Shown piece after piece: positions 4,993 to 63,304 of a stretch of DNA of 64,000 nucleotides. The notes under the pieces are model-generated. The model saw nothing but the letters and a program-made list of their open reading frames with translations. It made no database searches and was not told the origin of the DNA. The position numbers and the translations under genes are program-made. The stretch is from a virus: IMG/VR virus record IMGVR_UViG_3300024496_000011; one strand, 5' to 3'. Position 1 is the stretch's first letter. Each line of letters starts with the position of its first letter.

Positions 4993-6639
4993 TTACATAT
5001 ACTCCCACATGTAAGATCTATCCCCATATTCATCTACGAACCATCGATCGCCATCCGAGTCAACAAAACTTTCATTATCTAGACCATCAGATATAAACCC
5101 AAAAGGCGACATATCCTGTTCAATTTGATTTTTTTGTTCTTCATATAGTCTTTTTCTTACATCTTGATCCGTAAGTTCTTTAAAATAGTCTTGAGCAACC
5201 AACCAGGCATAAATGACCAAACACATTGCAAGGTCATCATTGCATCCTTCTTCTGCTTCAAATGAATTATGTTTTTGAATAAAAGTGGTTAGCTCACTAA
5301 TTATTTCATAGTCATTTAAATATAATTTATTTTCTTCAATCATAGTCTTTAAATTAAGACATCCAACTTTTTTTACAGTTTTAGACATCTTAACGCCTAG
5401 TTGAGTTTTCTTTCCAGAAAAACCTTGCCCTACAATTTGACCCGCTCTACCTCTCATAGAGCACATAAGCAAATTATTATATTCTAAATCGTATTGAAGA
5501 ATACTTGCAACTTGATCTCCAACATCATTTACTTCACATAAAATATATGCACTATTATATGCCACTGCTGTTTCCTGAATGATGCTTGGGAAGAGCATTG
5601 GTTTTATTTCATTGTTTCTATATTTTGCAACAACTTTATGTGGAAATTGTGTTATATCAACTACGGTGAAGGCAGAATAATCATTTCCAACACCTCTAGC
5701 AACATCAACAGTAATTAAATAATCATGATTTTCTTCTGGATCAACATAAACATCCAACCCAGCACTACGTGTTTTGGGATGATCATAAACTAAAGATCTC
5801 AGTTTGCTTGGTGCAATAAGAGTATCAACAGACCCTAAAAATTCACATTCAAACTCAACTTTGAATTGTTGTTCACTTGTATTTGCAATAGTCTGGGCTT
5901 TCCATGCTTCGTCTCTACCTGGAACTTCCGACCAATGAACATCAGTGAAAACATATTCATTTTTACCTTTCTCTGCATCGTGCCACATTCGGTAGAAATG
6001 ATTCATACCATGTGGAGTAGAAACTATAATAACTTTAGTTTGTTTACCAGAAGTAATTGTTGGATATACCGAGGCAAAGAATGAGTCTGCAATATGATTT
6101 GGAACGAACGCAAATTCGTCCAAGAATAGAATGTTAAATGACATTCCTCGAACAGCAGAAGCTGATGTAGATGCTGCTAAAATCTTGGAACCATTCTCAA
6201 GTTCTAGAGAACCTTTATTCCAAGATATAATTCCTTGCTGCATCCACTTGGGTAAGTTTTCATAAGCGGTCTGTAACCTATCTAGGAGCTCCCTGGCAGT
6301 CGCTGCTTTGTTTGCAAGGATACCTATGTTAACATTGTCGTTAAACACCGCATAGTGGAGCAGGAAAGACACTACGGTAGTTGACTTACCTGTTTGCCTA
6401 GGCATCTTACAGATATTAAATCTGTGGTTATGGAAATTATTAATTAATTTCTCTTGGAAGTGATATGGTTTAAAAGTTTGTAAACCATGATCCAAGGTCA
6501 CAATTTTTACATAATTATTTGCAAAATAAACTGGGTCATCCTTACACTTAACAAATTCAAGAATTTGTTCTTGGGTAAATTCAATTGGCGTATTTGCTTT
6601 TTTTAGAAGCGGATTACCAAGATAAACATCATTTGACAT
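4993..6639 (-). CDS. g17: Terminase large subunit gp17
   Basis: Walker A PRQTGKST, Walker B ILFLDEFAF, motif III STPHG, nuclease DVARG...DYS and NDDL; no intein-sized insertion. Confidence 0.98.
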   Translation of the reverse strand: MSNDVYLGNPLLKKANTPIEFTQEQILEFVKCKDDPVYFANNYVKIVTLDHGLQTFKPYHFQEKLINNFHNHRFNICKMPRQTGKSTTVVSFLLHYAVFNDNVNIGILANKAATARELLDRLQTAYENLPKWMQQGIISWNKGSLELENGSKILAASTSASAVRGMSFNILFLDEFAFVPNHIADSFFASVYPTITSGKQTKVIIVSTPHGMNHFYRMWHDAEKGKNEYVFTDVHWSEVPGRDEAWKAQTIANTSEQQFKVEFECEFLGSVDTLIAPSKLRSLVYDHPKTRSAGLDVYVDPEENHDYLITVDVARGVGNDYSAFTVVDITQFPHKVVAKYRNNEIKPMLFPSIIQETAVAYNSAYILCEVNDVGDQVASILQYDLEYNNLLMCSMRGRAGQIVGQGFSGKKTQLGVKMSKTVKKVGCLNLKTMIEENKLYLNDYEIISELTTFIQKHNSFEAEEGCNDDLAMCLVIYAWLVAQDYFKELTDQDVRKRLYEEQKNQIEQDMSPFGFISDGLDNESFVDSDGDRWFVDEYGDRSYMWEYM

Positions 6640-28600: not shown

Positions 28601-31600
28601 GTGTTACTAATAACACTGGTTATTCCTGGAACAGAGGAATAATTTCTGCCGCCAGATCTTAATTCAAGATCTTCAATGCAACCTGTTACATTTTTTGAAT
28701 TAGTATAATATTCAAAAAATCCATCAGATTCTGTGTAAGATAAACTTTCTGGATATGTTAAAATATTAAATTTAAATGTTGTCTGACCAACACCTAAGAT
28801 TGTATGATATCCCGAATAACCGCTATTTGTTAAAGAAAGTTTGTTATTATTTCGGACTTCATCATCAGTGATTATTTCTTTCTTTATTGAACTATTGCTA
28901 AGTAAGTCAATAGGAACCAAAGAATAATACAAATCAAAATTTAAATTATTGGTCGTTAAAGTGACTATAGCATTTGATCCAATTTTGCCTGATTTTACAA
29001 TTTCAAATTGAGAAGAATCCGTTGTTTTTTTGAATTCTTCACTAAAACTAGGATCAAAATATAATTTAAAGTCAAAAGCTGGGTAAGAATTTTGATCCTT
29101 AATATATGATAAGGAACTATCAGAAAGATCAAATCTAACAACTTGATTGGGTATTACATTTAGTTCTGGATTGACTAAAGAAATTGTACCAAAAGAAGCA
29201 CTCGTAAAATCTATAATCTCTGGAATAGTTTTAGTAGAGTTATAGTATGATGAAGATAATTTAATCCTATCCTTATCAAACCTTACGATATAATATATTT
29301 GATTGTCTAAAAGTCCACCAATTGGAGTATTGGAAGAATAAATTATTTTTTGTCCAGTATAATACCCGTGATTTGGGATATTAATTGTATTATTTGTGAT
29401 GTTTACTTTTGATGAAATAAATGATACCGGATTAATTACTAATCTTCTATGTTTATCGTTATATTTTACTGTAATAGTAGTAGTAATACCAGGTAAAGAA
29501 TTCATGTAAATTACTTCACCATTACTTAACCCATGAGACGATGCCGTAGAGACTGTAATAGTATTTTTTACAATTTCTCCACTTAAGACATTATCATAAT
29601 TAGTTTTAAAACTATGATTTACTCCAGAACCAATATTAATAAAATATAATAATGATGCAGATATGCTACTATCTATTCCGACGAAAGAACCAGTAGAACC
29701 TAGACCTACTCTATAAGTGGATATTCCTACCAAATCATTCGAAATTTTAGTTGCATATAACACCTGATTGTCTGCTAATTGGAAATTAACAGAACCATCA
29801 TCAGAAACATAAAAAGGCGATCCACCATTACTAGAATATATTAATTCAGTTCCAGTATCTAAAGAATGATTAGGCAAATACATTGTTTTGGTTGGAACAA
29901 AGATATTTGTAATCCCAGCTCCAGGATTTGAGAAATATATTGTAGAACCAATACTAGCTCCAGAAGAAGAACCTATAGATAAAGACTCTTTAGGATCAAA
30001 GTAAATAGTCTTATTTAAATTATAATTTTGATTCTGACCGTTAATAGAATTTACAACAAATTTTCTAGTTTGCTCATAAAGAACAGATGTTGCCGTGTGA
30101 GATGCTCCAACTGTAGAATCATATTCTCTAATCACTTTGATTCTTGACGATAATTTATCGATAGATAAAATTCTTACTTTTTCATCATCAATTTTATAAA
30201 TGTCATTTTCCCTAATATTTGGGAAATTCAACGATCCATTTACCTCAAAATAGGTTACTATTCCAGTAGCAGAAGAAGATCCTACAGATTTAGATAAAAT
30301 TAAAGTATCAGATCTAATTCCAACTTCAAAAAGACTGTCAAAATCTTTTGAAGAAGTGCTCAATCCTGATATAGAAATTATATCTTTGTTAAAAAGACTA
30401 TGTGGCAGTGTGCAGAATCCAATGAATTTACCTGTAGAGTCGTATGGATAAAATTCTACTGATTGCGAAGAAGTTGAAGCAAAACTAATATTTTTAATTG
30501 ATTTTCCTTTTACATATGAAACATGCGCATATGCATCAGATCCCCCAGAATTAAAATTATTAAATCTTACGAGATCTCCAACTTTATATCCAGATCCTCC
30601 TGTTACAATTCCTATATTTGATATTCTTCCACTAGTGGAAGATTTTACTATTGAAACTGGTTCTTTAACTTTAATTGGGTTGAAAACAAAATCGTAGTTT
30701 GAAGTATTGCTAGTAAATTTATAAGGTGTAGTATTTCTTAATAACTGCTCAGAAACAAAGTCAAAAGTATTTTGACTTATACTCCTATCATAATTGAATT
30801 GGATTGAATCTGATTTAAAAGTATTTCCAATTAAATATGGAAAGACTGGTTTTTTATAGTTCTTGAAAACTCCATCAGTCTCTGTTGGTCCATTATTAAT
30901 AGTTGCGAAATATGCATAAACTCCATTTGGATATTCTGGAGTAATACAAAATCTTCCATTATGTCTATCCAAATCACCCGAACCATTGAATTGATAATCT
31001 TCGACAAAAAAACCTTCAGAATAAATTCTATTTCCTGAAGATATTGGATTTGGTCTGTCACTTGATGGTTGATAAACATATCCAGATACCATCTCTCTAA
31101 TATTTCCACTACCAGAAGGATTATCATATCCATATGGTCCATAAATTGGATTTCCGTCATATGCCCATCCAATAATAGGAGAGTGTACATATGATGTTAC
31201 TTCTCTACTATTTGATAATTTCAAATCTGCAACATAAGTTTTTTTACCATTTACATAATCAATACCAAAAACACTTCTCCTCAATTTTCTTGGTGCATAT
31301 AAATGACAATATTGGGATCCGTTTATTGTATATGAAGATACATCAATAATTCCATCGTCATCTAAAACTTTTTTAGATTCCAAATACTGCTGAACTTTGT
31401 TAATAGTCCAAGATTTTATTTTGGTCTCACATTTAAAGTTTTGACCAGATGGAACAACATTTACATAAGTGCTTGATGTAGTAAATCCAGATCCTCCATT
31501 TACTACTTTTACTTCTACTATTTTGCCATTATTAATTACTGGAGTTAAAACTGCTCCTGTTCCAATACCCAAAATATTAATATTTGGTGGTGCAGTGTAA

Positions 31601-34600
31601 CTATTTCCCTGATTTAAAACTAAAATTTCAGTTATTCTACCATTATTAATTATCGGAGAAAACTGAGCTCCAGAACCAATACCTAGCGTTATTCTGGGTT
31701 GTCTTTCATAGTTAATGATTTCCGAAGATCCATACCCAACTCCAGGATTTTTAACAAAAAGATTTGTGATACTTCCTCTAAAAATAGGTTGCAATTTAGC
31801 ATTAAAATTTTGTCCCGTTAATGTAGAGACTCCTATTTTGCCAGTTATTTGTACATTAATTTCTGGGTAGTTGAAACTATGTGTCGAAGAACCAGAAGAG
31901 ACGAAATTAATATATTGATTTGTTCTATAATAAAAATCTTTATTAGTAGTGGCAATTCCCACTAAAGAAAGTCTAAATTCATCTTTATTCAATTTAGTAA
32001 TATAATATGAATTGTTATCAGACAAACCCCCAACAGGTGTTTCAGAAGAATTGTAAACTACAATTTCTCCACTTTCATATCCATGATCAAATATTTTAAT
32101 AGTGTTTGATGAGGTATTAATGCCAGATGATGAACAAAAAGTTTGTTTATTTGTATACCCAAATCCAGAATCTATTACATTAATACTGGATATTTTTCTT
32201 TTTGTAAGAACAGATTCAAAGGCATGAATTCCTGAACCATGAGATGTTAAATCTATAGTGTTTATTCCGGAAACAGCATCATTAAAAGTCTTATGAAGCT
32301 TTATATTGTATGCATCTTGAACTGAAGCATAATATTGAGCATTAGTTGATAGACCACCGACAGCAGTAGAACCATATGTCAAATACACAATATTTTCATA
32401 ATCTCTAAATTTGTGGTAGCTAGAGAATCCAATTGTATTGTTTGCAAGATTTACTAATCCCGAAGAACTATCTGAAATAAAAGAAACATTGTGTTTAAAC
32501 GGGGTTAAATTTGGTTTGGCGTAAGCACCATAACCATTTCCTCCGGTTATTGTTATCACAGGTTCTTCAACATAATCAAATCCACCATCTAGAACATCAA
32601 TTCTTTCTAAAGAACCATTTACATGAGTAATTAAAGATGCGCCTATACCCAAAGAATCTTCTACAACTGCGATAGGCGGATTAATAACATCAAAGTTTTC
32701 TCCACCCGTTATTACATTAATTGATTGAATACCTCCATAATAAACTTTATCGTCAGATTTATAGTTATATGCCTCTACACCATTGACAAAAACTCCAATG
32801 GGACCAACTGGAGTTTCTTCATTTCTACCACTAGTAGAAGATTGTGTTATATTTTTTACATAATTTTGTGGTGATAACGAAGCATTTTCAAATTTTAATT
32901 TTCTAAAAATATTATCTGTGACAGTACCAGAAACTGTTACAAACTTATTTTTAAATAAATCCGATTTGCTATTAGATAATTTTATTTTTGTATTGTCTAT
33001 TCTTTTAACATAATATACTTTTCCCAAAATATCCAAAGAATTTACAACACTTTCATCATTTTTGATGTAAATAATTGCATCGCCAGTATAAAGACCATGT
33101 AAATTATTTGGATTACCTGAACTTAAATCTAAAGTTTCTTGATTGAAAGATCCCGAAAAAATAATATCCGTATTTTTTATTTGAATATCTTCATTTAAAT
33201 AATCTGGAATAGAATTTGCTGCGACATAAATGTTATTTTCATCTTTAATGTAAACATTTTGAATATTTGCAGTACTATCATTTATAAATTTAAAGTTGGA
33301 AAATCTTGGTTTTTTTAATTTTCTTTGAATGGTATATCTTAAATTTAAATTTTCAACTTTTGGTCCTTCAATAGATATACTCTTTTCGTTATCTATACCA
33401 ACTACATTATATAAAAGTTTAATTCCACCTGAAGATAGTAAATCTGCAGAGTCTCCTAGGGAAAAATTATGATCATCATAAGTTGTAATGTTATAAGAAA
33501 ATGTATTTTGAGTTATATTGGATGCAGTTGGTCCCTTTATTTCTTTTACATCGTAACTGTTAACTACATTAAATTTCCAAGTGTTCGGTAAAACACCCTT
33601 TGCTTCATATCCTAAAGTAATTGTTTTTATTGGATCACCTTTAGTCATTGAAGAGTTAAGTATACTGTAGGATAAATCTGACAAAACTCCAGTAATTCTG
33701 ACTTGTATAATCGAATTATCTGATGCATATGCATATGCATATTGATTTAATTTTATATCTGTACCTTCAGGAACAATAATATCCGATAGAGGAGTTATAA
33801 AAAATTGGTTTATATTTTTATATGAATATTTTGTTTTATAATCCACTCCATTTACATTAAATATTAGCTCTCCATAACTTGGAAATCCCAAAGTAGAATC
33901 TACATCTATAAAATACTGATTCTGTTTTATTTCTGAAACATTTTTTGTTGATGGATGAATATAGAAATTACCATAAATCGAACCCTGAACATTGATGTCT
34001 TTATTGTAATCAGAATCAATACTCAAAACATAGTATGTTTTATTTTGTCTTACTATTTTTTCAACTTTTGAAACGCTACCGTAAGCTTTACCGTGAAAAT
34101 CATTCTCGTCCTGATAGAGAGTTCTATTCTCCAAATCAATTGGATTTCCTAGAATAGATTCTACTACTATCTGCTTAGAAACTCTATATTTTGAATCTGA
34201 AGGTTTTAGAAGAAAATCTCTTGGTTTTACTACGCTTACATCTTCGCCAAATAGAGCTTTGAATATTAATTTATAGGAATCATCAGTTCCTTTTGATTTG
34301 TAAAAATCTTTTGCCTGCAGTAAAAAATTTTTTTCGTTTAAACCGTCAGCAAAAGTTCTATTTTCAAATCCAGGAAGCAACTGTTTTTTTATTTTAAATA
34401 AAAATTCTTTTAAAAATAAAGAACTTAAATTTAAAACTTTTGTGTTAGTAGTATGTGTTGAAATACTTGATGTGGAGAATACTAACTGATCTGGATTATT
34501 GCTTGAATGGTAAGATGTTATACCACTAAATCCTCTAGTACAATTATTAAATGTTGTGCTTGTCTTATCCGAATATAATATGATCTCAGAATCTATTTGA

Positions 34601-35091
34601 ATTATGCCATTTTTTTCTGGAAATCCATAAGTTGATTCTACTGTTACTGTTAAATCGGTAAAATCAACATCACTTTTTAAAAATGTCGTTGATTTAGATT
34701 CTGAAGAAAATTCTAAGATATCTCCTGGAACAGCAGGTAACACAAAAGATACTGATAATCCATCAGTTGCAAAATAATCAATGTCTTTTTGTAACTTCAG
34801 ACCATTTTTATAAACAATAAGATCTTCTGGAGAATAACCAGTAGAAATTACAAAATAATTTTCTGGAGACTGTGGTTTTATTGTTACGACACGGTTAAAT
34901 AAACTATCATACAGTTTGTCAATTTTTAAATACTGATCAATGTTTTGGAGAATATCTAAAGTTCCTCCCTGAGACTCAACTGAGTTATAATATTCTTTTA
35001 AAAACTCACTGACAAGAGGATATTCCTCTTGCACAAAGTCTGGAAGTTGATTCTGTACGATTGAACTGATTTTAACTCGTGTATCTTTCAT
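22609..35091 (-). CDS. g7: Giant baseplate wedge initiator gp7-like protein (4160 aa)
   Basis: Position between g6 and g8; N-terminal QLPDFV..EYP...EFLKEYY, FYKSKGTDDSYKLIFKALFG; HSPIIGWAYDGNPIYGPYG / LDRHNGRFCITPEYPNGVYAYF (YHYH-like) block; many GSGY repeats. Confidence 0.85.
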   Translation of the reverse strand: MKDTRVKISSIVQNQLPDFVQEEYPLVSEFLKEYYNSVESQGGTLDILQNIDQYLKIDKLYDSLFNRVVTIKPQSPENYFVISTGYSPEDLIVYKNGLKLQKDIDYFATDGLSVSFVLPAVPGDILEFSSESKSTTFLKSDVDFTDLTVTVESTYGFPEKNGIIQIDSEIILYSDKTSTTFNNCTRGFSGITSYHSSNNPDQLVFSTSSISTHTTNTKVLNLSSLFLKEFLFKIKKQLLPGFENRTFADGLNEKNFLLQAKDFYKSKGTDDSYKLIFKALFGEDVSVVKPRDFLLKPSDSKYRVSKQIVVESILGNPIDLENRTLYQDENDFHGKAYGSVSKVEKIVRQNKTYYVLSIDSDYNKDINVQGSIYGNFYIHPSTKNVSEIKQNQYFIDVDSTLGFPSYGELIFNVNGVDYKTKYSYKNINQFFITPLSDIIVPEGTDIKLNQYAYAYASDNSIIQVRITGVLSDLSYSILNSSMTKGDPIKTITLGYEAKGVLPNTWKFNVVNSYDVKEIKGPTASNITQNTFSYNITTYDDHNFSLGDSADLLSSGGIKLLYNVVGIDNEKSISIEGPKVENLNLRYTIQRKLKKPRFSNFKFINDSTANIQNVYIKDENNIYVAANSIPDYLNEDIQIKNTDIIFSGSFNQETLDLSSGNPNNLHGLYTGDAIIYIKNDESVVNSLDILGKVYYVKRIDNTKIKLSNSKSDLFKNKFVTVSGTVTDNIFRKLKFENASLSPQNYVKNITQSSTSGRNEETPVGPIGVFVNGVEAYNYKSDDKVYYGGIQSINVITGGENFDVINPPIAVVEDSLGIGASLITHVNGSLERIDVLDGGFDYVEEPVITITGGNGYGAYAKPNLTPFKHNVSFISDSSSGLVNLANNTIGFSSYHKFRDYENIVYLTYGSTAVGGLSTNAQYYASVQDAYNIKLHKTFNDAVSGINTIDLTSHGSGIHAFESVLTKRKISSINVIDSGFGYTNKQTFCSSSGINTSSNTIKIFDHGYESGEIVVYNSSETPVGGLSDNNSYYITKLNKDEFRLSLVGIATTNKDFYYRTNQYINFVSSGSSTHSFNYPEINVQITGKIGVSTLTGQNFNAKLQPIFRGSITNLFVKNPGVGYGSSEIINYERQPRITLGIGSGAQFSPIINNGRITEILVLNQGNSYTAPPNINILGIGTGAVLTPVINNGKIVEVKVVNGGSGFTTSSTYVNVVPSGQNFKCETKIKSWTINKVQQYLESKKVLDDDGIIDVSSYTINGSQYCHLYAPRKLRRSVFGIDYVNGKKTYVADLKLSNSREVTSYVHSPIIGWAYDGNPIYGPYGYDNPSGSGNIREMVSGYVYQPSSDRPNPISSGNRIYSEGFFVEDYQFNGSGDLDRHNGRFCITPEYPNGVYAYFATINNGPTETDGVFKNYKKPVFPYLIGNTFKSDSIQFNYDRSISQNTFDFVSEQLLRNTTPYKFTSNTSNYDFVFNPIKVKEPVSIVKSSTSGRISNIGIVTGGSGYKVGDLVRFNNFNSGGSDAYAHVSYVKGKSIKNISFASTSSQSVEFYPYDSTGKFIGFCTLPHSLFNKDIISISGLSTSSKDFDSLFEVGIRSDTLILSKSVGSSSATGIVTYFEVNGSLNFPNIRENDIYKIDDEKVRILSIDKLSSRIKVIREYDSTVGASHTATSVLYEQTRKFVVNSINGQNQNYNLNKTIYFDPKESLSIGSSSGASIGSTIYFSNPGAGITNIFVPTKTMYLPNHSLDTGTELIYSSNGGSPFYVSDDGSVNFQLADNQVLYATKISNDLVGISTYRVGLGSTGSFVGIDSSISASLLYFINIGSGVNHSFKTNYDNVLSGEIVKNTITVSTASSHGLSNGEVIYMNSLPGITTTITVKYNDKHRRLVINPVSFISSKVNITNNTINIPNHGYYTGQKIIYSSNTPIGGLLDNQIYYIVRFDKDRIKLSSSYYNSTKTIPEIIDFTSASFGTISLVNPELNVIPNQVVRFDLSDSSLSYIKDQNSYPAFDFKLYFDPSFSEEFKKTTDSSQFEIVKSGKIGSNAIVTLTTNNLNFDLYYSLVPIDLLSNSSIKKEIITDDEVRNNNKLSLTNSGYSGYHTILGVGQTTFKFNILTYPESLSYTESDGFFEYYTNSKNVTGCIEDLELRSGGRNYSSVPGITSVISNTGRGAIFNISSTDIGSIKKIEIDDIGFEYSADTTLRPSAKLPQILTINPSSTFKSVGVSSVGINYTLSPKLVVIDSYTNKVVTDIDLEYDILNKKVNILKNTDGIYDATPKILPVNNSNGIPVNNITFNSTTKDVTVELAVNFSYGQEFPLSIGDKILVESANIISSGSTSFRGYNSKNYNYELFTLTSVNPQYGGSGATVVYNLSNYLGVNENPGTFDEENSAAIIVPSKYFPIFDPVLEKGKFIKGEKVTSDSSYGNVLNWNQYSEQLKITSKDYFNTGVFIRGETSNTKGIITKIEDLIAIYSVDGSSVVNQGWEDEVGFLNNQFQVTPDNNYYQYFSYAIKSKVDYETWNKSIGNLNHTSGFKKFGDLVAESVDSGFTGISTVQDQGNFIGIADLVSEVDLNCINDYDLVKERVITIDSNYFSKEIAFSSISLQDELQSIGNRVLLVDDFSDQFSNIPKTDTYSNIESFVLSTIRAKKYVTYVRDKKFSGLRQICLVSLVQDELESYMLQYGKVSSNYDLGSFDFSILGSQGILRFYPINYTINDYDISVMSYSISDSVSSVGNTSLGNIATLESSRAVIPPSTTTTIVGIGSSYRSSKVLVELTASDGTYFEFSELTLIHDGTNVNITEYGRLSNANRLAYSGLDSIGTYSAYISGSVINLDFTPNVGVGTTYFANTLGISIGSTSSAVTSGNLTFNTGELKSTYTSILSSASPTETKISTYDTNHSGAYYFIVAEDTTNNRYKASEVVLVDDGGETYLLEYGTIETVSGSGIGTIGAGIGSTGTNLYFTADPNISVDVRVYQHAMRVVDTSNSFEFYNFNNANILSRFSSYEGTFNSVKKSFDLKHKETPIFQRRIDSSDTSIVNIENNTIRLPKHFFVTGEELVYNSGGGEKIGIATTTIAGIGTTDKVPSTVYAIKVNDLSIRLSASAENALKPIPEPLILTSVGIGTTHTFTSTKQNSKCLISIDNFIQSPIVSTSTTTTLSNLSQLNEETISLSGISSIFGGDLLKIDDEIVKVNSVGFGSTNVLLVSRGWMGTNPDDHSNGSLVTKIMGNYNIVDNTIHFIDAPYGNSPIGTITNRPDARDFTGITTRSTFSGRVFLRSGIENSNEDTYKTNYVFDSLDEQFSGVSTQFTLKSSGSNVSGLSTSGSSAVILINNVFQEPQRLGSINIFGDYKLEENSGITTIGFTGNISSTAYDINTSSIPRGGIIISVGSTQGFGYQPLVSAGGTSIVSSAGTISSISIGNTGSGYRSSLKYEIITKVSTTVGSGQTIIPIDNIDGVFGKLLFSSANTIGIGSVLVNVPIVSVGSTYITIGAASTTSQIISKDATALISLNSPMVGLVDVGVKTSSTGLLNYQFVGFATILSGHISNNVIITNPGSGYTTSNPPTVVFESPLNYSDIPLVYSGGYSGVGTQATIDIIVGQGSSVVNFEIKNLGYAYKVSELLTVPVGGLVGIPTDPTKPFRNFEITIDQVFSDQFSGWSIGDFQVIDKVENLFNGRRRNFPIKIDGIQTAIRSLSGSSIDVQSTLLVFINDILQVPGSGYIFNGGSIITFTEAPKEGDSCKIIFYKGTSQVDVVFADILESVKVGDNLRINGDSISLKENERLVTDIVSSDSVETNPYSDVGLSLDENLVRPVVWCKQTEDKIVNGKEVGKDRILYESLIQPTTNIIQNVSVGSTEIFVQNAKIFFDDLRENATVPYKTKILITSQDSLVGASATAVVSIAGTISAISLTNGGLGFTTSPSVTISSPTGIGSTCLVTSSISSGIVTSFTITNPGSGYTQSKPPYVLISYPSPKTEKIEDVTYEGDFGIIVGVQTTSVGIASTGIIFDLFVPTESYLRNTNINVGVATTGISGIKTDYYFTIFNSNIGYGITSLDSSSSIVGVGTSCLDNVYKVASVSIAQTSVPGIGVTNVSRVIVSVLGYNGLSGMGYSAFYGEYSWGKINTTVRKRPKSFTSYTNNGISGLSTSAVIQRINPLRYVGYSTTLQ

Positions 35092-48338: not shown

Positions 48339-49268
48339 TTAAGTCCATTGCTTAGGAAGAGCAAAGTTTTGATGAGAAAACTCATCACGATTTACAATCT
48401 TGTAACTTCCAAACTCATTGTGCATGACATAACCTTCATGATCACTGATTCCACCATCAATTTCACATCGAATGTCAGTGTCACATTCAATGTAAAAGAA
48501 CATGTCCATTTTGATAGACTCAATCAACTTCCACAAACGAAGCAGGTTGATGTCAACATCATAATTTTCTGCAATTTCATGCTCATCCACCTCACTACCC
48601 TCGCGGATGTAGGAATTGATGACTTTTTTGAGTTCTTTTGCTTGTTTATCATTCACAAAGGTGCAAAGAGTGCTCATTTGTTTAGCAAACTTGCAGAAGT
48701 CTTCGATGTCTTCGCGATAAGGACAAATAGATGCTTCTGGTTGCACCCATTTCACATCCAGAGTATCAGCAAACTGTTTGCTGATAGGATATGCAACAGC
48801 ATTGCGAAGATCATCTTCACAATCATACTCAGTGTGAGGGGCAATGATTACACTTTGCTCAATCACCTCAGGGAACTTGTAAGTGATCGTGTTGGGGCAA
48901 TAAGTATCACTCCCAGCAAAACCAATAAAATCACCTTGATAGATATGACTTGTGCGAGGTAGACTATCAAAGCAAGCATGAAGAATAGTCGCAACTTTAC
49001 CTTCATGGTTTTGATCAATTTCTTCATGAGAATGATTGATTTTAATTTTTACTTTGTTGAACACAGATTTGGTGCCAACAAAAAACTTACCGTTAGCAGG
49101 ATTGCGACCCCACACAATAGCAGGAGCGCCATCAATCTTGACACTGACATGAGAATCGGCAGTGAACCAATCAAGAACTGAAAGATCACCAGTCAAGATG
49201 GTATCTTCAGGATGTTCGATGTGCTTGTTTTGCATTGGTGTTTGAGTCACAGGTTGATCATAAAACAA
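48339..49268 (-). CDS. Nucleotidyltransferase/ligase-fold protein (DUF6267-like)
   Basis: HIEHPED; SVKIDG (KxDG motif I), YQGDF (III-like), HEGYV (IV), YKIVNR (V). Confidence 0.7.
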   Translation of the reverse strand: MFYDQPVTQTPMQNKHIEHPEDTILTGDLSVLDWFTADSHVSVKIDGAPAIVWGRNPANGKFFVGTKSVFNKVKIKINHSHEEIDQNHEGKVATILHACFDSLPRTSHIYQGDFIGFAGSDTYCPNTITYKFPEVIEQSVIIAPHTEYDCEDDLRNAVAYPISKQFADTLDVKWVQPEASICPYREDIEDFCKFAKQMSTLCTFVNDKQAKELKKVINSYIREGSEVDEHEIAENYDVDINLLRLWKLIESIKMDMFFYIECDTDIRCEIDGGISDHEGYVMHNEFGSYKIVNRDEFSHQNFALPKQWT

Positions 49269-49680: not shown

Positions 49681-49739
49681 AATTTAACTGATCTTGGTGT
49701 GGAAATCAAGTGTCTTGTGACAGTTTGAGAACTGTCTCA
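49681..49739 (-). promoter_or_regulatory. Early promoter copy F
   Basis: TGTGACAG-TTTGAGAA-CTGTCTCA at 49716-49739; TAAATT -10-like box 29 bp away. Confidence 0.55.
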
Positions 49740-50315
49740 AAGTTTCTTATAAAGTATGATTTTCTTGTTTTCTCCAGTAGGTTTAACAAACTTTTGCTTT
49801 AATTGTTCTCCACTATCCCATTTCATTGAAGATGATTTGTGGGCAGGAAGTCCTGCGGTTTCACCTATAACTTCCCAATTATCTGCTTTATAAACTGCAC
49901 CAGTGTTTCCACCTGCAACAAATGTGAGCAAATGCGATAGATCATCACCATATTTTTCTTTCCATACTTCTTGGCAAGAATTGCGAACAAGTTTCAAAAT
50001 CTGTGTGCCTGCATTGGGTATCTTTCTCTTTAGGCAAAATCTCCAATTATTTGCGAAGTTGTTAAAAACCTTTCGATATTCATCTTTACTGAGATTTACC
50101 TTTTTCAACAAATCTTTCGGTGGTGGATATACTGAAGAACCAAGTCCAATCATGCCAATACACTCAGGAAGTAAACCCTCCTGAGTATAATAAATCAACC
50201 AATCAATCCGTCTACCTACAGATGCTGCAGATGCGACATAACTGTGATAGTTCTCGATGATATTTTTTACTTCTTGCTTTTGTGCTTTTGTTGTAACTAA
50301 CTCAATAGAAAACAT
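49737..50315 (-). CDS. Mom/DUF4338 (DruA)-like GNAT-fold protein, putative DNA base-modifying acyltransferase
   Basis: I.NYHSYV...GRRIDWLIY..CIGMIGLGS; NNWRFCL; W.EKYG..L..LLTFV...TGAVYKADNW..IGETAG. Confidence 0.7.
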   Translation of the reverse strand: MFSIELVTTKAQKQEVKNIIENYHSYVASAASVGRRIDWLIYYTQEGLLPECIGMIGLGSSVYPPPKDLLKKVNLSKDEYRKVFNNFANNWRFCLKRKIPNAGTQILKLVRNSCQEVWKEKYGDDLSHLLTFVAGGNTGAVYKADNWEVIGETAGLPAHKSSSMKWDSGEQLKQKFVKPTGENKKIILYKKL

Positions 50316-50983
50316 TAGAAAGTTTTGTAAATATGAAACATCAATCCATGATAACCAGAGGTATATTTTTTACCCGAACCTTTCATTTGAAGATGAAACA
50401 TTTTATTGCCATTTGAGTCAATAAAATGTAGTGTGGTCTCATTCAATACCCATTGTCCATTATACACCAGTTGCTCAAGATCTTCAACAGAGTACACTTG
50501 AGTATTAGTAGTAGGTTTATCAAACCAAATCAAATAATCAACTGGAGTGTCGCTCATGCCGCGGCGGACAATCACATCGAAGATTTCAAGTTTGTGTTGA
50601 TTGAACCATTCAATCGCCCAATCATTGTATCCATCATCAATTTGACTTTTAGTGAGTCGATGTTGACGACTTTGACCTTTGCTTACATCTTTTCCAGGAA
50701 TACCAAAGAAAGAATCAAACCACAGACGGAGATCTCCAGCAATGTTAAAAAACTCACACCACCTTTCAGTAGAAGTTAGGTGACATTGAGTGTGATTCTT
50801 ACTGACAGATTTGAGACTGTAAGAAACACCAGTTTCGTTGTTAATGATGTCTTGCTTTGTCTTGGGTTTTCCATCAACAACATGACCAGCAGTTTTAGTA
50901 TTCAACCAATCACAAATGCGCTGTTCATTAAGATGACCGATGCGCTTTGCTTCGGTTCCTGCAATGATTTGGGCAGTAGTCAT
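50315..50983 (-). CDS. Type IIP-like restriction endonuclease, HinP1I/MspI-family PD-(D/E)XK fold
   Basis: AKRIGHLNEQRICDW, K.KQDI, YSLKSVS..HTQC, RL...I......IEWF..HK..I.DVIVRRG, LQMKGSG, LMFHI; follows the motif order I recall for HinP1I. Confidence 0.7.
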   Translation of the reverse strand: MTTAQIIAGTEAKRIGHLNEQRICDWLNTKTAGHVVDGKPKTKQDIINNETGVSYSLKSVSKNHTQCHLTSTERWCEFFNIAGDLRLWFDSFFGIPGKDVSKGQSRQHRLTKSQIDDGYNDWAIEWFNQHKLEIFDVIVRRGMSDTPVDYLIWFDKPTTNTQVYSVEDLEQLVYNGQWVLNETTLHFIDSNGNKMFHLQMKGSGKKYTSGYHGLMFHIYKTF

Positions 50984-51008: not shown

Positions 51009-51434
51009 TTAGCGACTCATAATTGCTTTGAGTCTTGCCTTCTTTGCTGCAAGTTCAGATTGTGCTCTGCTTTGCATTTCTCCATGAGATTGTCTAATCT
51101 GTTTCCCCTTCCAAGTAGCAGATTGTCTAGCAACTTGTTGGTTATACAAATTAGGTTCCATTGTTGGACTTTGCTCAGTCTGCAACTCTTCCTTTACCTT
51201 CTTCGCTGCTTTTTCTCTACGCTTGAGTTCTCTCTTTACAGCACCACCGCCACTACGATTAACAATGAGTTTTTCTATTTCTTTTTTCTTTGGTTTACCT
51301 GCTGGACCTGAATGTGACTGGAGAGTGTAACTTTTTACTCCATCAACTTCTTTATAAGTTCCAGGAACTGCGTGTGGTGGAGTATTTGGTTTTTTACCTT
51401 CACAAATTTCGTAGAACTCTTTGAATGTCAACAT
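51009..51434 (-). CDS. Basic late protein with capsid-targeting-like N-terminus (MLTFKEFYEICE)
   Basis: ORF track; ATAAATA promoter at 51455-51461; K/R-rich body. Confidence 0.75.
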   Translation of the reverse strand: MLTFKEFYEICEGKKPNTPPHAVPGTYKEVDGVKSYTLQSHSGPAGKPKKKEIEKLIVNRSGGGAVKRELKRREKAAKKVKEELQTEQSPTMEPNLYNQQVARQSATWKGKQIRQSHGEMQSRAQSELAAKKARLKAIMSR

Positions 51435-53906: not shown

Positions 53907-53965
53907 AGTATAGGGTCTCCTGCGACCCCTGCGAGCATGTGTGGGACAGTTCCCCAACTGTCCTC
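53907..53965 (-). promoter_or_regulatory. Early promoter copy G
   Basis: -10 TATACT 53907-53912; TGGGACAG-TTCCCCAA-CTGTCCTC 53942-53965. Confidence 0.65.
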
Positions 53966-54800
53966 AGTACAATAAACTCTCTAGTGCATTTGGATTAGAT
54001 TCCACCTTCACTTCTGGATGTTTGATGATAATAAGTTCCGTTTTCTTTCCTCTGCAACTTACATCACCTGCCATCTGATAATCAAACTCCAAATAGCGAA
54101 ACTCTGTCCAATCTTTATAAAGTTCTTTAAGGTAATCTGTGTTGTCATAAGACATCACGAACCCACCTTTATGTTGCTTCAAGACATCAGAAAGTTTATC
54201 GTGATTGAATCCTTCGTGAGTGCTTCCATCAATACCATAATAGTATGATGTAGTTTTATAATAAGGAGGATCCAAATACATAAAATCATTCTGATGCTTT
54301 GGTATTGTATCAAAACAATTTCCAAAAGAAAATGAGAAGTTTGGATTATAGAACCCAATGAGTTTATGAATACCAGAAAGATTTAGATTCTTTCTGGATG
54401 ATTCTGATGTGTGACCAAGATCTCCACTAAAGGCACCTTTGATGCAAATGTAAAATGACCATGCTCGGGTGAACTTATCATCACTCTCTAAAAGAGGAAG
54501 AAAAGACTTATAGTGTTCTCTATCTTTTAGAGGATAATGCTTTGCTGCTTCTTCTCCAATTCTCTTTCCACCTTCTGTGGTTAGAATCTCCCAAAAATCA
54601 GCAAGAGGTTGAAATAAATCATATGCTTGAACTTTTACACCTCTTGCTGCAAGGGCAAGTTCAATACAACCTCCACCCATGAAAGGTGACATCATATATG
54701 TAAGATTAGGATGAATCTCATCAATAATCTTAATGATCTCATCTTTCATAGTGTTTTTACCACCAGCGTAGCGGTATAAACTTGTGGAGGTATATCTCAT
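53964..54800 (-). CDS. dam: Dam-like (D12 class) N6-adenine DNA methyltransferase
   Basis: RYAGGK, motif I SPFMGGG, motif IV YLDPPY, SYDN, KKTEL; target specificity not determinable from sequence reading. Confidence 0.88.
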   Translation of the reverse strand: MRYTSTSLYRYAGGKNTMKDEIIKIIDEIHPNLTYMMSPFMGGGCIELALAARGVKVQAYDLFQPLADFWEILTTEGGKRIGEEAAKHYPLKDREHYKSFLPLLESDDKFTRAWSFYICIKGAFSGDLGHTSESSRKNLNLSGIHKLIGFYNPNFSFSFGNCFDTIPKHQNDFMYLDPPYYKTTSYYYGIDGSTHEGFNHDKLSDVLKQHKGGFVMSYDNTDYLKELYKDWTEFRYLEFDYQMAGDVSCRGKKTELIIIKHPEVKVESNPNALESLLY

Positions 54801-62158: not shown

Positions 62159-63304
62159 TCATAGAGTAATCCAGCGTTTGTTAATAAGAGTCCATTTTGT
62201 TACTTCTGCGATGCGTTCCCGTACAGATTTTGCGGGCACCCATCCCAGTTTTTTCATTTTATCACCATCCAGAGCATAACGCAAATCGTGCCCTGGACGG
62301 GAAGAATGGAAGTCTAGCAATTCATACTTCAGTTCTTTACCCTGTGCTTCTGCAATAATCTGAGCGAGTTCAAGATTATTCAGTTCTTCAGAACCAACAA
62401 TGTTAAATTTGGAGCACTTTGCACCACCCCAAGTTGGTTCAAATGTTCCTTGATAATTCAGAAGGAACAGAATGGCATCAGCAACATCTTCAGCGTGAAT
62501 ATAATGACGGGAACCAGGAATGGTACAGGTCTTGTCACTATGAATCGTCACAGTCTCACCATCACGAATGCGTTTGATACACATTGGAATGTACTTCTCA
62601 GGATGTTGACGCTCCCCAAACACATTCATCGTATGAGTAATGTAAATCGGAAGACCATAGGTGTTCTCATAGGCAACTGCAAGTTCTTCACCACCTGCTT
62701 TGGTTGCACTGTAAGGATTAGTGGAGTTGTACCGATCATTCTCCTTGTACTTGATACCATTCGGTGCAGGACCAAATACTTCATCCGTGCTGAAATACAC
62801 AAAGCGTTCCAGATTATCTTTTTGAAGACGCGCAAACTCCAGAATGTTGCAGGTTGCCACAACATTATCCAGAACAAACTCCATTGGATATTCAATACTG
62901 CGATCAACATGAGATCCAGCGGCAAGATGTAGAATATAATCCACATTTCCAACTTCACTACGGACCAAAGGATTAAGCTCTGCCTTGAGATCGTGATGAA
63001 CTACTTTGACACGTTTGCGAACTTCAGGATCAAATGAAAGCATCAAATCGTGCAGACGATTCAAGTTTCCACTATAATCAAGACGATCAAGTGTTACAAT
63101 GTCCCAATCAGTTGTTTTTAAAATTTGTCCAATCAAATGATGGGCAATAAATCCAGCACCGCCAGTAATTAAAACTTTTTTATTCACTTACAATTTTCCC
63201 TCAACAGTTGAATCATAAGTTTTATCAGGTGATTTGTCAAACTCACCGTCTTGCTTTGCTTTCAAATACCAACGAGTTGCTCTAACACATTCTTCTTCAG
63301 TAAG
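62082..63304. repeat. 77-bp direct repeat (70/77 identical) at 62082-62158 and 63228-63304 flanking the dehydratase gene
   Basis: Manual alignment of ggtgatttgtcaaactcacc...acattcttcttcagt. Confidence 0.9.
62159..63187 (-). CDS. rmlB: NAD-dependent epimerase/dehydratase, dTDP-glucose 4,6-dehydratase type
   Basis: TGGAGFI (GxxGxxG), HLAA.SHVDRSI, STDEVFG, PYSATK (YxxxK), N.FG..Q.PEK, RPGHD.RY. Confidence 0.85.
   Translation of the reverse strand: MNKKVLITGGAGFIAHHLIGQILKTTDWDIVTLDRLDYSGNLNRLHDLMLSFDPEVRKRVKVVHHDLKAELNPLVRSEVGNVDYILHLAAGSHVDRSIEYPMEFVLDNVVATCNILEFARLQKDNLERFVYFSTDEVFGPAPNGIKYKENDRYNSTNPYSATKAGGEELAVAYENTYGLPIYITHTMNVFGERQHPEKYIPMCIKRIRDGETVTIHSDKTCTIPGSRHYIHAEDVADAILFLLNYQGTFEPTWGGAKCSKFNIVGSEELNNLELAQIIAEAQGKELKYELLDFHSSRPGHDLRYALDGDKMKKLGWVPAKSVRERIAEVTKWTLINKRWITL

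What the first reader, a model, noticed from the sequence alone, without database searches (positions are those of the whole stretch)
49737..50983. Candidate new restriction-modification architecture: HinP1I/MspI-like endonuclease coupled to a Mom/DUF4338-like GNAT instead of a methyltransferase
Seen: two genes overlapping by one base (TAATG at 50315). The upstream 222-aa protein follows, block by block, the motif order I recall for HinP1I: G+..AK.G..NE..I..; K.DI; +.+K.VS...Q; R+...+.....+.W+..++..+..I.R.G; +Q.KG; L.F.I. The downstream 192-aa protein has the Mom/DruA-type signature (I..YHSY; +G.IGLGS; W...YG..L..L.TFV; G.+YKA.NW..+G.T). Established: HinP1I (GCGC) and MspI (CCGG) are normally paired with C5-cytosine MTases; Mu Mom is a GNAT-fold adenine-modifying enzyme; DUF4338 is DruA of Druantia. 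No C5 MTase is present in the window, and both CCGG (108-111) and GCGC (2796-2799) occur in the phage DNA, so self-protection would be needed if specificity is similar. Inference: a phage-borne R-M module in which a non-methyl base modification protects phage DNA while the nuclease destroys host or competitor DNA.
Basis: partly seen in the sequence, partly recalled or inferred. Interest (0 to 1): 0.85.

Follow-up and report, generated by a model that had tools for sequence, protein, structure and literature searches.

The report
Phage ACGT-cutter paired with Mom-like modifier
A T4-like phage carries a mobile two-gene unit: a HinP1I-type restriction enzyme that most likely cuts ACGT (a word the phage has almost erased from its own DNA) and, where relatives carry a DNA methylase, a Mom/DruA-type acyltransferase that probably marks DNA with something other than a methyl group.

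Summary
Two minus-strand genes overlap by one base. The 222-aa protein has the full HinP1I/MspI fold (Z 18.9). The 192-aa protein is a GNAT whose best structural match is Mu Mom, with a marginal Pfam DruA hit.

The restriction-modification reading is partly supported.
- For it: the pair moves as a unit between three backbone positions. In three separate nuclease clades the neighbouring slot holds either this GNAT or a DNA methyltransferase. One swap is with a nuclease 67% identical to that of cultured cyanophage S-CAM22.
- Corrections: the target is probably ACGT, not GCGC or CCGG. The window has 2 ACGT against 59 expected. A 180-kb relative with the nuclease and no adjacent modifier has 0 against 267. 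Seventy-nine nuclease-free relatives have 1162 against 1577. The purge is made by context-dependent codon choice. Self-protection is therefore mainly by site loss, and the GNAT is at most a second layer.

The idea is not new. Iyer et al. 2021 predicted Mom-plus-REase "momylation" systems, and this scan reported an HNH/Mom-like pair on other DNA. This is a new variant of a predicted, still untested kind, and it can be tested with standard E. coli assays.

The parts
50315..50983 (-). HinP1I/MspI-fold restriction endonuclease, 222 aa; inferred target ACGT
   Evidence: ORF. AF2 pLDDT 91.5. HinP1I Z 18.9 over 208/222 residues, MspI Z 12.4. E20, D45, S56-x-K58 are conserved across all clades. Distant family members reach Pfam R-HINP1I (P0348, 30.9 bits). 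The ACGT purge tracks the gene.
49737..50315 (-). Compact Mom/DruA-type GNAT acyltransferase, 192 aa; candidate DNA base modifier in the 'M' slot
   Evidence: Pfam DruA 27.6 bits and PHROG Mom-like. GNAT fold with Mom 8bv8 top at Z 14.8. Mom H58, R111, S124 (as Thr) and Y159 equivalents are kept; D149 and R151 are lost. A methyltransferase occupies this slot in sister cassettes.
50313..50317 (-). TAATG stop/start overlap coupling the two genes
   Evidence: The same -1 overlap, or -4 or -10 overlaps, occur in related cassettes.
5767..5770 (.). One of only two ACGT sites left in the 64-kb window (inside the terminase gene)
63011..63014 (.). Second remaining ACGT site (inside the epimerase-like gene)
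51009..51434 (-). 141-aa basic protein of no known family; lies inside the stretch that is inserted relative to the nuclease-free relative L184
   Evidence: L184 has g51464, s49514, s49305 and DUF6267 contiguous. No Pfam or PADLOC hit.

Best explanation
This is a mobile two-gene cassette of a T4-like phage.

Gene 1 encodes a monomeric HinP1I/MspI-family restriction endonuclease (about 0.95). Its target is most likely ACGT (about 0.75). It would cut host DNA and the DNA of co-infecting phages that carry ACGT.

The phage's own DNA is safe mainly because ACGT has been removed by synonymous codon choice. This is shown by counts.

Gene 2 is translationally coupled to gene 1. It encodes a compact member of the Mom/DruA branch of GNAT acyltransferases and most likely writes an acyl or aminoacyl mark on an exocyclic amine of a DNA base (about 0.6, inferred from homology and context). 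It occupies the slot that an SPPY-type DNA methyltransferase holds in sister cassettes. It therefore probably acts as the protective 'M' partner (about 0.45), in one or more of these ways:
- covering residual or new ACGT sites;
- letting the cassette enter ACGT-bearing genomes;
- doubling as general anti-restriction.

Shown: folds, motifs, gene order, cassette mobility, partner swaps, the ACGT purge and its link to the nuclease. Inferred: cleavage at ACGT, DNA modification by the GNAT, and protection by it.
For: Folds: nuclease; GNAT.

Catalytic pattern: the helix Glu plus D-X10-SxK is invariant in 13 diverse homologues, compared with HhaI SD-X11-EAK (PMC7026639).

Sequence bridge to Pfam R-HINP1I through distant family members.

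ACGT counts (observed/expected):
- window 2/59
- nuclease loci with no adjacent modifier 0/584
- whole 180-kb contig G002 0/267
- 79 nuclease-free relatives anchored on DUF6267 1162/1577
- P-SSM2 52/60, Syn9 33/42, S-PM2 59/63

Codon level in the window: NAC before GTN occurs 0 times against 193 for NAT; ACG before T occurs 0 times against 53 elsewhere; CGT after a codon ending in A occurs 2 times against 64 elsewhere.

Lineages with a methyltransferase partner keep ACGT: S-CAM22 45/74, SPPY-MTase clade 53/154.

Partner swaps:
- The nuclease tree has a clade (support 95) that mixes GNAT-followed and PF01555-followed genes.
- A second clade (support 100) holds GNAT-preceded genes and genes followed by an SPPY MTase-like protein.
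- The L104 nuclease is 67% identical to the S-CAM22 nuclease. L104 is followed by the GNAT, S-CAM22 by a PF01555 methylase.
- The S-CAM22 methylase is 88% identical to the clade-A partner methylase.

Mobility: the pair is 86-92% identical yet sits at three backbone positions, while backbone proteins are 50-70% identical.
Against: - Nuclease homologues do without any adjacent modifier in about 45 of 77 loci. In the 93%-complete G002 there is no GNAT, no PF01555 and no C5 methyltransferase. A partner is therefore not required once ACGT is gone.
- The window clade is purged almost as fully as those modifier-less lineages (6/163 against 0/584), so the GNAT has little left to protect.
- The GNAT is solitary in 63 of 79 loci, inside T4-like replication modules, so it has a function of its own.
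- It lacks the counterparts of Mom D149 and R151, which are essential in Mom (PMC13219725).
- It reaches neither Pfam Mom PF25680 nor any PADLOC model.
- No cleavage or modification has been measured.
- The tree is a quick search with SH-aLRT support only.
Confidence: 0.5

Rival explanations
1. The nuclease works alone and is protected by site purge only. The GNAT is an independent anti-restriction DNA modifier, like Mom in Mu. It sits beside the nuclease because both are accessory genes that travel through the same insertion hotspots.
For: Modifier-less nuclease lineages have zero ACGT. The GNAT is solitary in 63 of 79 loci. The window is nearly ACGT-free. Some phages carry arrays of GNATs with true Mom or long DruA paralogues and no nuclease (L120, L130).
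Against: The stop/start overlap is conserved. The pair moves as a unit to three backbone positions at 86-92% identity. Adjacency arose in both gene orders and in three nuclease clades. Each such clade sits next to methyltransferase-partnered sisters. No GNAT was found in about 700 kb around DUF6267 in nuclease-free relatives.
Confidence: 0.3
2. One reading: the nuclease cuts GCGC or CCGG like HinP1I or MspI, and the GNAT mark is the only thing that protects the 64 such sites in the window.
For: Fold similarity to HinP1I and MspI.
Against: G002 keeps 75 GCGC and 128 CCGG with the nuclease, but has no GNAT, PF01555 or C5 methyltransferase. The word that vanishes with the nuclease is ACGT. Fold does not fix specificity within this family (HinP1I, MspI and HhaI differ; PMC7026639).
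Confidence: 0.04
3. The nearby D12-class adenine methyltransferase (53964-54800) is the true protective partner, and the GNAT is unrelated.
For: A D12 methyltransferase lies 3 kb from the nuclease. G002 and G006 also carry one.
Against: In G002 it lies about 80 kb from the nuclease. D12 Dam genes are common in nuclease-free cyanophages such as P-SSM2. It does not move with the cassette. If it protected ACGT, the site would not need purging.
Confidence: 0.05
4. The GNAT does not act on DNA. It acylates a protein, an aminoacyl-tRNA or the nuclease itself, for example as a timing switch or a toxin-like host-takeover factor.
For: The Mom match is only about 1 Z unit above generic GNATs. Mom D149 and R151 are missing. 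GNAT substrates cannot be read from the fold (PMC13219725, discussion).
Against: Pfam DruA and PHROG Mom-like hits. BLAST-level links to a 405-aa DruA protein (PF14236, 3e-21). It sits in DNA replication modules and in the methyltransferase slot of R-M cassettes.
Confidence: 0.1

Closest known systems
R.HinP1I (G^CGC) and R.MspI (C^CGG), monomeric Type IIP PD-(D/E)XK restriction endonucleases (PDB 2fkc, 1ynm, 1sa3; Pfam PF11463)
   Same: The full-length two-domain fold is shared (Z 18.9 and 12.4). So is the N-terminal helix Glu plus Asp...xK catalytic pattern, and the small size suited to a monomer. Distant family members reach PF11463.
   Different: The window protein has no direct Pfam or PDB sequence hit. 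It has Ser in place of Gln/Asn/Glu before the catalytic Lys. The inferred target is ACGT rather than GCGC or CCGG. It is phage-borne. Its partner is a GNAT or an SPPY/NPPY methyltransferase, not a C5 methyltransferase.
Predicted 'momylation' restriction-modification systems: Mom-family GNAT fused to REase-fold domains in jumbo phages (Iyer, Anantharaman, Krishnan, Burroughs, Aravind 2021, PMC7824862 section 3.4.7)
   Same: A Mom-superfamily GNAT is coupled to a restriction-fold nuclease in a phage. The proposed logic is the same: the mark protects phage DNA and the nuclease attacks host or rival DNA.
   Different: Here there are two separate, overlapping genes. The GNAT is a compact DruA-like form lacking Mom D149 and R151. 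The nuclease is a HinP1I-type Type IIP enzyme. There is added evidence from methyltransferase-to-GNAT swaps and from a genome-wide purge of the site. Both the published systems and this one are untested at the bench.
Mu Mom (PDB 8bv8; Silva et al. 2026, PMC13219725), a glycyl-tRNA-dependent N6-adenine DNA modifier
   Same: GNAT fold. An insert between the last two strands. Equivalents of H58, R111, S124 (as Thr), Y159 and N163.
   Different: No PF25680 hit. D149 and R151 are absent. It is shorter (192 against 241 aa). Target base and acyl donor are unknown. It is linked to a nuclease, whereas Mom in Mu has no nuclease partner.
Solitary restriction enzymes in site-free genomes (PacI type), named by earlier scan reports e1-5625436 and e1-5750268 and not checked by me in the literature; also virus-encoded R-M such as that of chloroviruses (from my own knowledge)
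   Same: The carrier is immune because it lacks the target word, and the nuclease can attack other DNA.
   Different: In the window a candidate modifier is still attached. The fully solitary state is seen in relatives (G002).

Membership tests
HinP1I/MspI family of monomeric Type IIP endonucleases | Two-domain alpha/beta fold superposable over the full length | tested here: met
   VIA Z 18.9, rmsd 2.8, 208/222 residues on 2fkc; MspI Z 12.4. The next unrelated nucleases score Z 6-7. Foldseek E 8e-11.
HinP1I/MspI family of monomeric Type IIP endonucleases | PD-(D/E)XK catalytic residues on helix A and strands 2-3 | tested here: met
   E20 lies on helix 3-30, D45 at the start of strand 46-48, and S56-x-K58 on strand 54-60. 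D45, S56 and K58 are invariant across 13 diverse homologues, and E20 across the 36 closer ones. Equivalence to the HinP1I residues is inferred from position, not from a residue-level superposition.
HinP1I/MspI family of monomeric Type IIP endonucleases | Match to Pfam PF11463 (R-HINP1I) | tested here: inconclusive
   The window protein has no hit at E<=1. Family members found with its profile do hit: P0348 30.9 bits (cut-off 25), P0367 24.1, P0368 17.6.
HinP1I/MspI family of monomeric Type IIP endonucleases | Sequence-specific cleavage of a short palindrome | not testable with these tools
   Indirect only: ACGT is purged wherever the gene occurs.
Mom family (Pfam PF25680) | Profile match to PF25680 | tested here: not met
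   No hit at E<=1. True Mom proteins in related phages score 7e-48.
Mom family (Pfam PF25680) | Residues essential in Mu Mom: R111, S124, D149, R151 (PMC13219725) | tested here: not met
   R92 aligns with R111 and T104 with S124. D149 and R151 fall in a shortened loop (TFVAGGN) with no acidic or basic counterpart.
DruA / DUF4338 (Pfam PF14236) | Profile match above the gathering score | tested here: met
   27.6 bits against a cut-off of 27, covering profile positions 52-174 of 297 only. Most family members carry the precomputed PF14236 label.
Druantia defence system | DruA together with DruB-E (large helicase) | tested here: not met
   No PADLOC model hits the GNAT, the nuclease or the 1884-aa neighbour. 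The surrounding genes are T4-like phage genes.
GNAT superfamily | GNAT fold | tested here: met
   84 PDB matches at E<=1e-3, all listed ones GNATs. Z 13-15.
Type II restriction-modification system | Adjacent, co-oriented nuclease and modification genes that travel together | tested here: met
Type II restriction-modification system | The modification enzyme is a SAM-dependent DNA methyltransferase acting on the nuclease's site | tested here: not met
   The partner here is a GNAT. Methyltransferases (PF01555 with SPPY, PF05869 with NPPY) fill the slot only in relatives.
Solitary restriction enzyme protected by site avoidance | The carrier genome lacks the target word | tested here: met
   Window 2/59; relative G002 0/267.

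The most novel reading that the evidence does not exclude
The compact GNAT has repeatedly replaced an SPPY-type methyltransferase. From my own knowledge, SPPY is the usual motif of N4-cytosine DNA methyltransferases. On this reading the GNAT writes an acyl or aminoacyl group on an exocyclic amine inside ACGT. That amine could be cytosine N4 rather than adenine N6, which would fit the loss of Mom's D149 and R151. The result would be a working Type II restriction-modification system whose protective mark is not a methyl group. The nuclease in turn would drive genome-wide loss of ACGT, and perhaps gene conversion of ACGT-free alleles among co-infecting phages.
Probability: 0.3. Interest if true: 0.85.

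Novelty: new variant of a known kind. Interest (0 to 1): 0.68.

Why it matters
If the GNAT protects DNA from its neighbour nuclease, this would be bench-ready evidence for restriction-modification built on an acyl mark instead of a methyl mark. That idea has been predicted from genomics but never tested. It could also reveal a new DNA base modification in abundant aquatic T4-like phages.

Three results stand regardless of the GNAT's role:
- An unannotated HinP1I-type nuclease family exists in cyanophage relatives. It is labelled 'hypothetical' in cultured S-CAM22 and is not called at all in S-RIM12.
- The family is tied to a complete loss of ACGT from genomes of up to 180 kb. This gives a rare case where an enzyme's specificity can be read from the carrier's sequence.
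- Pfam does not recognise the nuclease and only marginally recognises the GNAT, and PADLOC recognises neither.

Tried and rejected
- Direct sequence searches of both proteins and their profiles against PDB found nothing useful.
- megablast of the region, and tblastn of the GNAT, against 50,697 GenBank phage records found nothing.
- The window's own assembly is not held, so the rest of the genome could not be searched for other methyltransferases.
- hhalign of the GNAT profile against Mu Mom was weak (22% probability) and misplaced the beta-5 strand. A MAFFT alignment through intermediate sequences was used instead.
- The promoter and terminator scan gave no more sites than shuffles. One sigma-70-like site lies inside the nuclease gene upstream of the GNAT (50487-50459) and is only a lead.
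- A search for nuclease-free close relatives using the halogenase-like neighbour returned the same contigs. The DUF6267 anchor worked.
- A codon-by-codon comparison of the DUF6267 gene with L179 and L180 was uninformative, because those copies also lack ACGT.
- In the clade where the nuclease follows a replication-module GNAT, no 4- to 6-letter word is purged. Its target cannot be read from counts, and its ACGT content equals that of GNAT-only relatives.
- The HinP1I structure papers (PMC1074309, PMC1363774) and Iyer et al. 2009 (PMC2995806) are not held.
- Complex prediction, the look-up of sequencing runs and read laying were not used, because no claim here rests on binding or on reads.
Full report
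**1. Observation**

The two genes are real. They lie on the minus strand at 50315-50983 (222 aa) and 49737-50315 (192 aa). The stop of the first and the start of the second share base 50315, reading TAATG. The window belongs to a T4-like myovirus: portal, sheath, large terminase, head-closure and UvsW-like helicase genes are present, and nearly all genes are on the minus strand.

**2. The nuclease**

- It has no Pfam family and only an unnamed PHROG.
- It has 174 relatives in the 5.8-billion-protein set, and 146 cluster representatives in the 1.84-billion set.
- An AlphaFold2 model built on 36 homologues has pLDDT 91.5.
- Foldseek ranks HinP1I first (E 8e-11), then MspI and HhaI.
- The second-look aligner gives HinP1I Z 18.9, rmsd 2.8, over 208 of 222 residues. 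MspI scores Z 12.4 and HhaI 7.5. All other nucleases, including the homing enzyme I-Ssp6803I, score 6.6 or less.
- E20 on the first helix, D45 at the start of a strand and S56-x-K58 on the next strand are conserved in every clade. This matches the layout described for this enzyme group, for example HhaI SD-X11-EAK (PMC7026639).
- The window protein does not itself reach Pfam R-HINP1I. Distant members found with its profile do: P0348 scores 30.9 bits against a cut-off of 25.

**3. The second protein**

- It scores just above the Pfam DruA threshold (27.6 against 27) and weakly matches the PHROG 'Mom-like DNA modification protein'.
- It has more than 1100 relatives at 90% clustering, and most carry the precomputed DruA label.
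- Its model (pLDDT 82) is a GNAT. Mu Mom is the top match at Z 14.8 with 161 residues aligned, but it stands only about one Z unit above ordinary acetyltransferases.
- I aligned it to Mu Mom through intermediate sequences from related phages.
  - It keeps the counterparts of Mom H58 (H24), R111 (R92), N121 (N101), S124 (T104), Y159 (Y142) and N163 (N146).
  - It lacks D149 and R151, which are essential in Mom and are modelled next to the flipped adenine (PMC13219725, section on the crystal structure).
- A conserved 33-residue insert lies between the last two strands, where Mom has its essential insert.
- I therefore call it a distinct compact branch of the Mom/DruA group, not a Mom orthologue.

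**4. Is the pairing more than chance?**

Among 77 viral contigs with a nuclease homologue, the neighbours are:

| Neighbour of the nuclease | Loci |
|---|---|
| This GNAT, downstream | 8 |
| This GNAT, upstream | 4 |
| PF01555 methyltransferase with an SPPY motif, downstream | 10 |
| PF05869 Dam-type methyltransferase (NPPY), downstream | 2 |
| SPPY methyltransferase-like protein, downstream | 2 |
| No adjacent modifier | about 45 |

A quick maximum-likelihood tree of the nucleases (SH-aLRT support only) shows three points:
- The window's group sits inside a clade (support 95) that it shares with the PF01555-partnered group.
- The GNAT-upstream group is sister to the SPPY-like group, within a clade of support 100.
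- L104, whose nuclease is followed by the GNAT with a 4-nt overlap, groups with the Dam-partnered genes.

The L104 nuclease is 67% identical to the unnamed 'hypothetical protein' of cultured Synechococcus phage S-CAM22. That protein overlaps an annotated 'DNA methylase' (PF01555) by 4 nt. The S-CAM22 methylase is 88% identical to the methylase that partners the window's sister group. So the same two modifier types alternate next to nucleases that are only about 25% identical to each other.

The window-type pair is 86-92% identical between contigs whose backbone proteins are only 50-70% identical, and it sits at three different backbone positions. In the nuclease-free relative L184 the flanking genes are contiguous. 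The pair therefore behaves as a mobile cassette.

**5. The unexpected finding: ACGT**

ACGT occurs twice in the 64-kb window, at 5767 and 63011. A second-order Markov model expects 59, and base composition alone expects 202. ACGC, ACGA, TCGT and the other one-letter neighbours are normal or enriched. GCGC (34/50) and CCGG (30/41) are not purged.

In the window's long ORFs the purge shows up as context-dependent codon choice in all three frames:
- NAC codons never precede GTN (0, against 193 NAT).
- ACG never precedes T (0, against 53 elsewhere).
- CGT follows a codon ending in A only twice (against 64 elsewhere).

Across relatives the purge follows the nuclease:

| Set | ACGT observed/expected |
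|---|---|
| Nuclease loci without an adjacent modifier (493 kb) | 0/584 |
| Whole contig G002 (180 kb, 93% complete) | 0/267 |
| Window-type cassette loci | 4/104 |
| L007 and L010 | 0/28 |
| Dam-partnered loci | 0/22 |
| L241 | 2/22 |
| 79 nuclease-free relatives anchored on DUF6267 (55-86% identical to the window's copy) | 1162/1577 |
| P-SSM2 | 52/60 |
| Syn9 | 33/42 |
| S-PM2 | 59/63 |
| PF01555-partnered clade | 53/154 |
| S-CAM22 | 45/74 |

Lineages with a methyltransferase partner keep many sites. The simplest reading is that the nuclease cuts ACGT. Carriers are then immune either by methylation or by having no target. From my own knowledge of REBASE entries, the known A^CGT cutters (MaeII, HpyCH4IV) leave the same 5'-CG overhang as HinP1I and MspI. 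This is a lead, not a test.

**6. What this means for the GNAT**

It weakens the claim that the GNAT is needed for self-protection in this phage.
- The window clade is almost as purged as the modifier-less lineages.
- G002 has no GNAT, no PF01555 and no C5 methyltransferase. Its one D12 methyltransferase lies about 80 kb from the nuclease.
- The GNAT is usually solitary (63 of 79 loci). It then sits in T4-like replication modules next to gp59, gp32, gp41, gp61, gp45 or the clamp loader.
- Sometimes it occurs beside true Mom paralogues (PF25680, 7e-48) or a 405-aa DruA protein (PF14236, 3e-21).
- So it has a role of its own, most plausibly anti-restriction DNA modification, as proposed by earlier first-stage notes of this scan.

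Other evidence keeps the 'M-slot' reading alive.
- There is the conserved overlap, the joint mobility, adjacency in both gene orders, and repeated exchange with methyltransferases.
- In the clade where the nuclease follows a replication-module GNAT, no 4- to 6-letter word is purged although the catalytic residues are intact.
- L104 keeps ACGT (7/14) with only the GNAT beside its nuclease.
- In those two lineages something other than site loss must protect the DNA, if their nucleases are active.

A plausible history is that the cassette enters with a modifier, the sites are then lost, and finally the modifier is lost. On that view the window stands at the middle stage. This is inference.

**7. 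Rivals**

- Independent GNAT beside a solitary nuclease: 0.3.
- GNAT acting on a non-DNA substrate: 0.1.
- The D12 methyltransferase as protector: 0.05. It does not move with the cassette and is common in nuclease-free cyanophages.
G002 keeps 75 GCGC and 128 CCGG unprotected.

**8. Comparison with what is known**

The concept was published. Iyer et al. 2021 describe Mom-family GNATs fused to REase-fold domains in jumbo phages. They predict that momylation protects phage DNA while the nuclease attacks host or superinfecting DNA (PMC7824862, section 3.4.7).

Mom itself is now known to transfer glycine from Gly-tRNA to adenine N6 (PMC13219725).

This scan earlier reported three related cases on other DNA:
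- an HNH plus Mom-like pair with the same reading (e1-5391505);
- a site-purged element with an unpartnered ACGT cutter (e1-5625436);
- a TTAA-free cyanophage with its own nuclease (e1-5750268).

What is new here:
- the HinP1I-type nuclease family in cyanophage relatives;
- its inferred ACGT target;
- the two-gene form with a compact DruA-like GNAT that lacks two residues essential in Mom;
- the methyltransferase-to-GNAT swaps;
- the coexistence of site purge and a candidate modifier.

None of it has been tested at the bench.

**9. Verdict**

This is a new variant of a predicted kind. Interest is 0.68, because the predictions are sharp and can be tested with standard E. coli and cell-free assays and with one cultured phage.

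Noticed in passing
L160 (KU686207.1 32917-34262) and L164 (KX349327.1 37879-39179): Cultured cyanophages S-CAM22 and S-RIM12 carry a HinP1I-fold nuclease homologue directly upstream of a PF01555 DNA methylase. In S-CAM22 it is annotated 'hypothetical protein'. In S-RIM12 no gene is called at that place.
   Followed up: partly
L161 (P-SSM2), L162 (Syn9), L163 (S-PM2), L160 (S-CAM22): CCGG is completely absent from the sampled 30-50 kb of four cultured marine cyanophages (0 against 18-31 expected). GCGC is also absent from P-SSM2 (0/12). None of the first three carries this nuclease.
   Followed up: no
L120:4913-7495 and L130:5001-7100: Some T4-like phages carry arrays of Mom-superfamily genes. 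One has the compact GNAT, then gp45, then a 405-aa DruA-like protein. Another has the compact GNAT followed by two tandem true Mom genes (PF25680).
   Followed up: partly
GNAT-only loci L084-L157 (about 454 kb): GATC (427/1650) and CGCG (34/177) are strongly depleted in the phages that carry the solitary GNAT in their replication module.
   Followed up: no
window 48339-49268 (-): The DUF6267 protein has a K-x-D-G motif like motif I of nucleotidyl-transferase ligases. It is a conserved neighbour of the nuclease in several lineages, and its gene is ACGT-free even in relatives that otherwise keep ACGT (L179, L180, L182).
   Followed up: partly
window 50459-50487 (-): A sigma-70-like hexamer pair (TTGAAG, 17 nt, TATAAT) lies inside the nuclease gene about 150 nt upstream of the GNAT start. 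It could let the modifier be made without the nuclease, but the scan found no more sites than in shuffled sequence.
   Followed up: no
P0348 (1299 aa): A metagenomic protein call joins RNA polymerase Rpb1-like domains, an intein with a LAGLIDADG domain, and a C-terminal HinP1I-like domain. This may be a fused gene call.
   Followed up: no
window 22609-35091 (-): A 4160-aa ORF lies in the structural module, next to an 1884-aa ORF with no PADLOC hit.
   Followed up: no
window, whole: Other 4-letter palindromes are moderately depleted against the Markov expectation: AGCT 50/116, CATG 90/187, GGCC 8/15, GTAC 85/151.
   Followed up: no
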